From a virus (taxonomy: Duplodnaviria > Caudoviricetes): a stretch of DNA of 64,000 nucleotides. The notes beneath the pieces were generated by a model that made no database searches, was not told where the DNA came from, and saw nothing but the letters and a program-made list of their open reading frames with translations. The position numbers were made by a program, and so were the translations under genes. Below are positions 53,503-53,758 of this stretch, in pieces. The stretch lies in the IMG/VR virus record IMGVR_UViG_3300025316_001101; one strand, written 5' to 3'. The number at the start of each line of letters is the position of its first letter. Position 1 is the stretch's first letter.

Positions 53503-53758
53503 GTTGATTGATCCTGCCTTACCATTATGGATGCTAGCATCGGCTAAGTGACTAACGATCTGTGCCATTTATGCCTTTCAGCACCCCATTCAAGGGCCAC
53601 ACCCATCCCATCCACACACCAACTGCCGCCAGTGCTGACTTTAGGGATTCAGGAGTCTCACCTGCCTTCTCGTTCAATCAACAGGGTGTACGAGCGGACC
53701 TGCCCCGCCTTACTCTTGCTTCACAGGCAAGACCCTCGACTACTTCGGGATCGTACAC
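53503..53758 (-). ncRNA. unassigned ~255-nt structured RNA between two tRNAs
   Basis: GTGTACGA/TCGTACAC and GTTGATTGA/TCAATCAAC closing stems; internal hairpins; T-loop-like CAGG-TGAGACT-CCTG. Confidence 0.65.

What the first reader, a model, noticed from the sequence alone, without database searches (positions are those of the whole stretch)
53503..53758. Unassigned ~255-nt multi-domain ncRNA punctuated by tRNA-Gly and tRNA(CAT)
Seen: GC-rich, with no credible minus-strand ORF, and it fills the gap between two tRNAs exactly. Domain 1 is closed by GTGTACGA/TCGTACAC and contains hairpins TCTTGC/GCAAGA and GCGG/CCGC. Domain 2 is closed by the 9-bp GTTGATTGA/TCAATCAAC and contains a T-loop-like CAGG-TGAGACT-CCTG, CAGCAC/GTGCTG, GATGC/GCATC and a possible TGGATG/CATCCA long-range pairing. 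I see no RNase P (GAGGAAAGUCC), tmRNA, SRP or group II domain V signature. Established: large ncRNAs such as GOLLD and ROOL occur in phage tRNA clusters but are 2-3 times longer.
Basis: partly seen in the sequence, partly recalled or inferred. Interest (0 to 1): 0.68.

Follow-up and report, generated by a model that had tools for sequence, protein, structure and literature searches.

The report
Hidden tRNA plus orphan phage RNA
The flagged stretch in this giant lake phage is not one RNA but two: an unusual second histidine tRNA that the standard finders miss, and a separate 180-base folded RNA of no catalogued family that may be an atypical partner of the phage's own Ro60 ring protein.

Summary
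The 256 nt are two genes. Domain 1 (53685-53758, minus strand) is a degenerate tRNA-His(GUG). Its syntenic orthologues in two other phage lineages are called tRNAs and keep all three main stems through compensatory changes. It has U-1 instead of G-1, A8, no D-loop GG, and G54/G58 in the T-loop.

Domain 2 (53503-53682, 180 nt) is a separate unit. A perfect 9-bp helix pairs its exact ends (0/5000 shuffles). It is unchanged in a sister strain whose neighbouring gene differs at 28/411 sites, and it is cleanly absent from both more distant lineages. It has no Rfam hit and no diverged homologue, so its inner fold is unproven (MFE z -0.3).

Best reading (about 0.4): a divergent Y-RNA-like Ro60 partner cut out of the tRNA operon. 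Its closing helix has the register of the phage's own Y-RNA handles and is followed by a T-arm. It lacks their CUACA and CUUGUC motifs and fails the YrlA model. Main rival: an orphan stable RNA like T4 RNAC/RNAD.

The scan noted the 180-nt part before on this genome (e1-5402364), and on no other DNA.

The parts
53685..53758 (-). Degenerate second tRNA-His(GUG): G1:C72, discriminator C73, U at -1 (53759), A8, no D-loop GG, T-loop GGCAGGU; CCA not encoded
   Evidence: All 17 acceptor, anticodon and T-stem pairs form. The syntenic orthologue in L033 scores 45.4 bits as Rfam tRNA; the one in L271 is called tRNA-His by ARAGORN. Identical in sister L026.
53720..53726 (-). Anticodon loop CU-GUG-AA of that tRNA
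   Evidence: Same loop in L033, L271, L080, L085 and L053
53503..53682 (-). 180-nt orphan RNA ('domain 2')
   Evidence: Ends paired; 0 changes in sister; absent from L033 and L271; no Rfam hit
53671..53682 (-). 5' strand of the closing helix with a Y-handle-like motif (helix ends GA/UC, then A-C-G)
   Evidence: Same register as six own Y-RNA units; 8 of 9 letters match one own unit
53503..53511 (-). 3' strand of the 9-bp closing helix
   Evidence: Pair probability 0.93; 0/5000 shuffles have such a terminal helix
53650..53664 (-). T-arm-type hairpin, loop UGAGACU
   Evidence: In the MFE fold. The same 16-mer sits at the T-arm position of tRNA-like genes in L013, L014 and L020 (read by eye).
53605..53648 (-). 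Arm: 5-bp helix AUCCC/GGGAU directly after the T-arm, extended by a stem with a GGCA (GNRA) tetraloop
   Evidence: Pair probability 0.96 for the 5-bp helix; prediction only, no covariation
53571..53584 (-). Possible hairpin with a GAAA tetraloop
   Evidence: Formable but pair probability only 0.12
53530..53541 (-). 12-nt self-complementary stretch (hairpin or possible dimer site)
   Evidence: Read directly from the sequence; about 4% by chance in 180 nt (my estimate)
53761..53834 (-). Upstream tRNA-Gly(GCC)
53366..53497 (-). Downstream tRNA-like gene with a conserved D-loop insertion; its 5' processing would free the 3' end of the 180-nt RNA
   Evidence: Homologue in L033
55696..55723 (-). Promoter-like site 12/12 at the head of the cluster; a second one (11/12) at 55200-55228; none inside the element
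   Evidence: consensus match only
52953..53363 (-). Gene with a weak 2H-phosphoesterase match, used as synteny marker
   Evidence: PF22547, E 0.004; homologues

Best explanation
Two genes in one tRNA operon. (1) 53685-53758 is a degenerate second tRNA-His(GUG) of a phage lineage that encodes U-1 instead of G-1 (shown by orthology). It would probably need G-1 added by a Thg1-like enzyme to be charged well, and its broken elbow may make it a poor decoder or a decoy (inferred). (2) 53503-53682 is an accessory 180-nt RNA. It is co-transcribed with the tRNAs and released when the tRNA-His 3' end and the next gene's 5' end are processed, and its paired ends protect it (inferred). Most likely it works as a divergent Y-RNA-like partner of the phage Ro60/Rsr: the closing helix with its UGAA motif docks on the ring, and the T-arm plus a GNRA-capped cargo domain tether another factor, such as PNPase or a translation component (inferred, untested).
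For: Split: the element's tRNA is syntenic behind tRNA-Gly(GCC) in three lineages, and in L033 it is joined directly to the next gene with the 181-nt insert missing. Discrete unit: terminal helix 0/5000; 0/180 changes against 28/411 in the next gene (Fisher p 6e-5) and 12/167 in a nearby spacer (p 1e-4). Ro60 link: the record encodes a 569-aa TROVE + vWA_Ro60 protein about 12.5 kb upstream on the same strand. Six own Y units close with a 9-bp helix ending GA/UC followed by A-U-G; the 180-nt RNA has 9 bp, GA/UC, A-C-G. Of 860 perfect 9-bp helices in the genome only 5 have this register: three Y units, this RNA and one minus-strand hit; about 0.2% is expected at a fixed place (my estimate). Handle, then T-arm, then an acceptor-like helix is the YrlA order (PMC4201824). 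Ro60 reads mainly the 5' strand (PMC4201824), and C-to-U in CGAA costs only about 3-fold affinity for a phage Ro60 (PMC12135203). Two long own RNAs far from the Ro60 gene also carry the handle.
Against: All ten own Y units have GAAUG..CUACA with a CUUGUC nearby; this RNA has neither CUACA nor CUUGUC. The YrlA model does not list it at E<=10. It has no D-arm, no UUC T-loop and no YUAY. The handle likeness was noticed post hoc; 1707 genomic sites score as well on the 5' motif alone, about 1.6 register hits are expected by chance genome-wide (my estimate), and a chance closure was seen in L020. There is no covariation, and folding z is -0.3. Identity in the sister may reflect a recent block exchange: a nearby ORF has only 1/249 changes and neighbouring tRNAs are swapped alleles. 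No Thg1 is in the half-complete record.
Confidence: 0.4

Rival explanations
1. The 180-nt RNA is a real, stable, accessory RNA of the T4 RNAC/RNAD kind that does not bind Ro60. It folds through T-loop and GNRA contacts, perhaps dimerises through its 12-nt palindrome, and acts as a decoy or scaffold for a host nuclease or translation factor.
For: Same evidence for a discrete conserved unit; Y motifs are incomplete. Other unassigned RNAs fill such gaps in related phages (L031 behind tRNA-His; L022). T4 has two such RNAs of unknown role (PMC3014915).
Against: Does not explain the handle-like register. No partner is identified.
Confidence: 0.33
2. The RNA, or its cargo domain, imitates ribosomal RNA (L1 stalk H76-H78, or 16S h3/h18), like the GTPase-centre mimic elsewhere in this phage.
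For: Nt 61-99 align to 23S 2106-2142 (p about 0.1). Two exact 9-10-mers match 16S 27-45 (p 0.02-0.06 uncorrected). The phage has a true 23S mimic, and L1-stalk copies occur in other phage tRNA clusters.
Against: An L1-stalk profile of 11 sequences scores it 0.2 bits and 30% of shuffles do as well. LSU and SSU models give no hit. The h3-like and L1-like folds are 9-11 kcal/mol worse than the MFE.
Confidence: 0.1
3. A non-functional passenger, such as a remnant of a group II intron domain I or another mobile RNA, recently inserted and shared by close strains through recombination.
For: Found only in one narrow clade; folding no better than shuffles. A look-alike start in L022 gives a weak group-II-D1D4-4 match of 15 bits against a cut-off of 49.
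Against: Perfect end-pairing exactly at the spacer limits, zero changes against 7% next door, and no group II hit on the element itself.
Confidence: 0.13
4. One reading: one 255-nt two-domain RNA, with the degenerate tRNA-His left attached as a tRNA-like domain.
For: Only 2 nt separate the units. The T-loop of this copy is more decayed (G54, G58) than in the lineages that lack the 180-nt part.
Against: The tRNA stands alone in L033 and L271; the MFE fold has no pairing between the two units.
Confidence: 0.07

Closest known systems
Bacterial and phage Y RNAs: YrlA (RF02553; PMC4201824) and Yrl1/Yrl2 of Thermus phage phiLo (PMC12135203)
   Same: Phage encodes Ro60; 5' and 3' ends paired; a GAA-N-G motif at the inner end of the helix; T-arm followed by an acceptor-like helix
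   Different: 12.5 kb from the Ro60 gene (YrlA lies within 4 kb); A-U-U-GAA-C-G instead of GNCGAANG; no D-arm, YUAY or UUC T-loop; about 90 extra nt; no model hit
T4 RNAC and RNAD (PMC3014915)
   Same: Small non-coding RNAs of the phage tRNA region, role unknown
   Different: No sequence link found; expression is known for T4 but not here
GOLLD and ROOL (PMC12286853)
   Same: Phage-borne, near tRNA islands, unknown function
   Different: GOLLD often exceeds 800 nt and both form multimeric cages; this RNA is 180 nt with no Rfam hit and no shown structure
Bacterial tRNA-His with genomic G-1:C73 (PMC3061083) and the 8/4 tRNA-His of phages (PMC5389517)
   Same: GUG anticodon; C73 as in the usual bacterial form; the window copy alone could also be drawn 8/4
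   Different: U at -1; orthologues fix a 7/5 fold with C73, whereas 8/4 tRNA-His has A73 or U73; lacks U8, D-loop GG and U54:A58

Membership tests
tRNA-His (domain 1) | Cloverleaf with 7-bp acceptor, 5-bp anticodon and 5-bp T stems | tested here: met
   all pairs form, with different stem sequences in five relatives
tRNA-His (domain 1) | GUG anticodon in a 7-nt loop; discriminator C73 | tested here: met
tRNA-His (domain 1) | Genomically encoded G-1 | tested here: not met
   U-1 here and in L033, L271, L080, L085, L053; L064 has the G-1 form of the L053 tRNA
tRNA-His (domain 1) | Elbow residues U8, G18G19, U54/A58; recognised by tRNA models | tested here: not met
   A8, no GG, G54/G58; missed by ARAGORN and Rfam, while orthologues are recognised
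tRNA-His (domain 1) | Charged with histidine and used in decoding | not testable with these tools
   Needs an aminoacylation assay
8/4 tRNA-His (PMC5389517) | 8-bp acceptor, 4-bp T stem, A73 or U73 | tested here: not met
   Orthologues are 7/5 with C73
YrlA / Y RNA (domain 2) | Ro60 orthologue in the same genome | tested here: met
YrlA / Y RNA (domain 2) | Within about 4 kb of the Ro60 gene | tested here: not met
   About 12.5 kb, same strand
YrlA / Y RNA (domain 2) | GNCGAAN0-1G near the 5' end of a terminal helix | tested here: inconclusive
   6 of 8 positions, right register, same deviations as one own Y unit
YrlA / Y RNA (domain 2) | Conserved T and D arms around an acceptor-like stem; score with RF02553 | tested here: not met
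   T-type hairpin and 5-bp helix present; no D-arm; not among 19 matches at E<=10
YrlA / Y RNA (domain 2) | Bound by Ro60/Rsr | not testable with these tools
   Needs EMSA or pull-down
L1-stalk mimic RNA | H76-H78 sequence with both T-loops and UUGAAAUACCAC | tested here: not met
RNase P, tmRNA, SRP, 6S, group I/II introns, riboswitches, GOLLD, ROOL, small ribozymes in Rfam | Score with the Rfam model | tested here: not met
   best match 9 bits to an unrelated human lncRNA model
HDV-like and hammerhead ribozymes | P3/L3 core; CUGANGA core | tested here: not met
   Simple pattern search only

The most novel reading that the evidence does not exclude
The 180-nt RNA is a new kind of Ro60 partner: a handle recognised on its 5' strand only, a T-arm, and a cargo domain unrelated to tRNA or to any rRNA part tested, gained as an exchangeable module in a phage tRNA operon. 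It would extend this phage's Y-RNA set to a further cargo type.
Probability: 0.3. Interest if true: 0.65.

Novelty: new variant of a known kind. Interest (0 to 1): 0.42.

Why it matters
It corrects the annotation. A quarter of the 'new RNA' is a tRNA that standard finders miss. It belongs to a set of phage tRNA-His genes lacking the near-universal encoded G-1, which gives a testable role for phage Thg1-like enzymes (present in 7 of 33 large phage records searched). The remaining 180-nt RNA is a defined, short target in a phage that encodes its likely partner, so one binding assay could show how loosely phage Ro60 defines a Y RNA and address the old question of what non-tRNA RNAs in phage tRNA clusters do. 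Without homologues or expression data it stays a single-clade orphan, which limits its weight.

Tried and rejected
Homologue search for the 180-nt RNA was negative everywhere outside near-identical strains: phage GenBank blastn; exact T-arm patterns in IMG/VR and GTDB; nhmmer over about 140 loci fetched with the 2H alignment; BLAST of 49 and a covariance model over 69 virus records; the model over further loci and the own record; a shape descriptor; a T-loop pattern over 33 records. The model was built from two identical sequences, so it is weak, and most records are fragments. Model R2 had mis-set pairs by my error, so one search carries no weight; R3 replaced it.

Sequencing runs: no RNA holder listed. 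Reads laid were DNA contigs only.

Rejected readings: RNase P; group I intron (R/S-like words and a CAUAAUG end, but no room for P4-P6 and no Rfam hit); cobalamin, FMN and c-di-AMP riboswitch likeness (recalled from memory; no Rfam hit); HDV and hammerhead cores; 16S, 23S and 5S mimicry. The 7-mer excess against 23S (p 0.001) vanished at 8-mers and is not concentrated in one region. The 8/4 tRNA-His reading was rejected by orthologues. Protein coding: the plus-strand ORFs (53548-53859, 53562-53906) are antisense to tRNAs, and the two short minus-strand AUG frames have no spaced ribosome-binding site (by eye). The L022 RNA shares the T-arm and a following 5-bp helix but gave no wider homology. 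The L020 'handle' spans a tRNA and was judged chance. The first PWM score had an offset error, corrected.

Full report
Setting. The window lies in a 259-kb virus record, about half complete. ARAGORN lists 53 genes: 52 tRNAs and a tmRNA. The runs that hold it are freshwater or lake-water DNA metagenomes. The element is on the minus strand of a tRNA cluster headed by two promoter-like sites, with none inside the element. The record encodes a 569-aa Ro60/Rsr about 12.5 kb upstream, followed by Y-RNA-like repeats.

Observation. Folding energy is not better than shuffles: z -0.23 for 256 nt and -0.30 for the second part. Two of the proposed inner helices have pair probability near zero.

Domain 1 is a tRNA. 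Its three helices are the acceptor, anticodon and T stems around the loop CU-GUG-AA. I fetched relatives through the neighbouring 2H-like gene. In L033 and L271 the same place, directly behind tRNA-Gly(GCC), holds a tRNA-His: Rfam scores the first at 45.4 bits and ARAGORN calls the second. In these and three more phage tRNAs all 17 stem pairs form with different letters. All have G1:C72, C73 and U at -1; five of the six also have A8. L064 carries the G-1 form of the L053 tRNA. Bacterial tRNA-His normally encodes G-1, and Thg1-like proteins add it efficiently opposite C73 (PMC3061083). No such gene is in this partial record; 7 of 33 other large phage records have one, though none of the four fragmentary U-1 records searched does. 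The window copy is the most decayed, with G54 and G58 in the T-loop, which probably explains why it is missed. It is not the 8/4 type of PMC5389517. Whether it decodes is open; a canonical G-1 tRNA-His lies 240 nt upstream.

Domain 2 is a separate 180-nt unit. In L033 the tRNA-His is joined straight to the next gene, and 181 nt are missing without scar. L271 also lacks it. A perfect 9-bp helix pairs its first and last bases, which none of 5000 shuffles achieved. In sister strain L026 it has 0 changes in 180 nt, against 28/411 in the next gene and 12/167 in a nearby spacer. The cluster is mosaic, however: neighbouring tRNAs are swapped and one ORF has only 1 change in 249, so recent exchange could also give identity. 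The better supported inner elements are a hairpin with the T-type loop UGAGACU (in the MFE but not in the centroid fold), a 5-bp helix right behind it (pair probability 0.96), and a GGCA-capped stem. The 3' half is ambiguous. No diverged copy was found, so covariation is untested.

How it most likely works. Inferred: it is made as part of the tRNA operon and left free when its neighbours are matured, and the paired ends stabilise it. For its partner the best clue is the closing helix. Six of the phage's Y units end their 9-bp helix in GA/UC followed by A-U-G; this RNA has 9 bp, GA/UC, A-C-G. Only 5 of 860 perfect 9-bp helices in the genome have that register: three Y units, this RNA and one other. 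Near tRNA genes in all fetched loci the same search returned two own Y units, this RNA, one clear Y unit in L102 and one chance case. A T-arm and an acceptor-like helix follow in the YrlA order (PMC4201824). Ro60 mainly reads the 5' strand (PMC4201824), and U for C in CGAA lowers binding only about 3-fold in a phage Ro60 that forms complexes with host PNPase (PMC12135203). Against this: CUACA and CUUGUC, found with all ten own units, are missing; there is no D-arm; the YrlA model ignores it; the motif alone is common; and the match was spotted after the fact. I put this at 0.4, for 'works like a Y RNA'; it is not a YrlA member. An orphan of the T4 RNAC/RNAD kind (PMC3014915) that does not bind Ro60 is nearly as likely (0.33).

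Leads from earlier notes, tested. Notes on this genome describe Y RNAs with rRNA-like cargo. I confirmed one such mimic (LSU model E 2e-10; alignment) and the handles of two. For the 180-nt RNA the same tests fail: there is no LSU or SSU hit, and its likeness to the L1 stalk is not supported by a profile of 11 L1 stalks. Its matches to 16S 27-45 are not significant after correction.

Verdict. The finding is partly right. One part is an ordinary kind of gene in an unusual form; the other is a probably real, uncatalogued small RNA confined so far to one phage clade, with a testable but unproven link to Ro60. New variant of a known kind; interest 0.42.

Noticed in passing
window 53366-53497 (-); L033:3187-3320: The 'tRNA(CAT)' has a strongly conserved D-loop insertion of about 60 nt, but its anticodon region differs in L033 (CAU not kept), so it is probably not a decoding tRNA.
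   Followed up: partly
window 52705-52952 (-): A tRNA-framed RNA of about 250 nt with a large insert. It is full length in L033, sister L026 lacks 127 nt of it, and L207 has a weak homologue (E 1.6e-4).
   Followed up: partly
window 55503-55577 (-): tRNA-Met(CAU)-like gene with an odd T-loop, missed by ARAGORN and Rfam, identical in the sister strain.
   Followed up: no
window 55582-55675 (-): Initiator-type tRNA with 21 extra bases in the anticodon loop that the sister lacks exactly; similar 21-22 nt inserts in Lys, Trp and Arg tRNAs of L026, L033 and L271.
   Followed up: partly
L031:2786-3040: Another unassigned G+C-rich RNA of about 250 nt between tRNA-His and the 2H gene, unrelated to ours; no Rfam hit.
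   Followed up: partly
L022:1690-1900 (-): RNA of about 210 nt between tRNA-Asn and tRNA-Asp in a complete 436-kb phage, folding z -2.2, with the same T-arm and a 5-bp helix behind it; weak group-II-D1D4-4 match.
   Followed up: partly
L244, L257, L249/L254, L242/L251/L255, L256: Near-perfect stand-alone copies of the 23S L1 stalk in virus contigs, several inside tRNA clusters.
   Followed up: partly
L053, L082, L080, L085, L033, L271: A wider set of phage tRNA-His genes with U-1 and C73; L080 and L085 also have long variable arms.
   Followed up: partly
window 52953-53363 (-): The 2H-like gene family often sits inside phage tRNA clusters, which suggests a role in tRNA end processing.
   Followed up: no
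L102:1834-1901: A short Y-RNA unit 2 nt behind a tRNA-Lys, with UGAA and a variant 3' strand.
   Followed up: no
L004:76-333: A CsrA gene lies directly upstream of Ro60.
   Followed up: no
window 11227-11301 (-): tRNA with a CUA (amber) anticodon; a second one lies elsewhere in the record.
   Followed up: no
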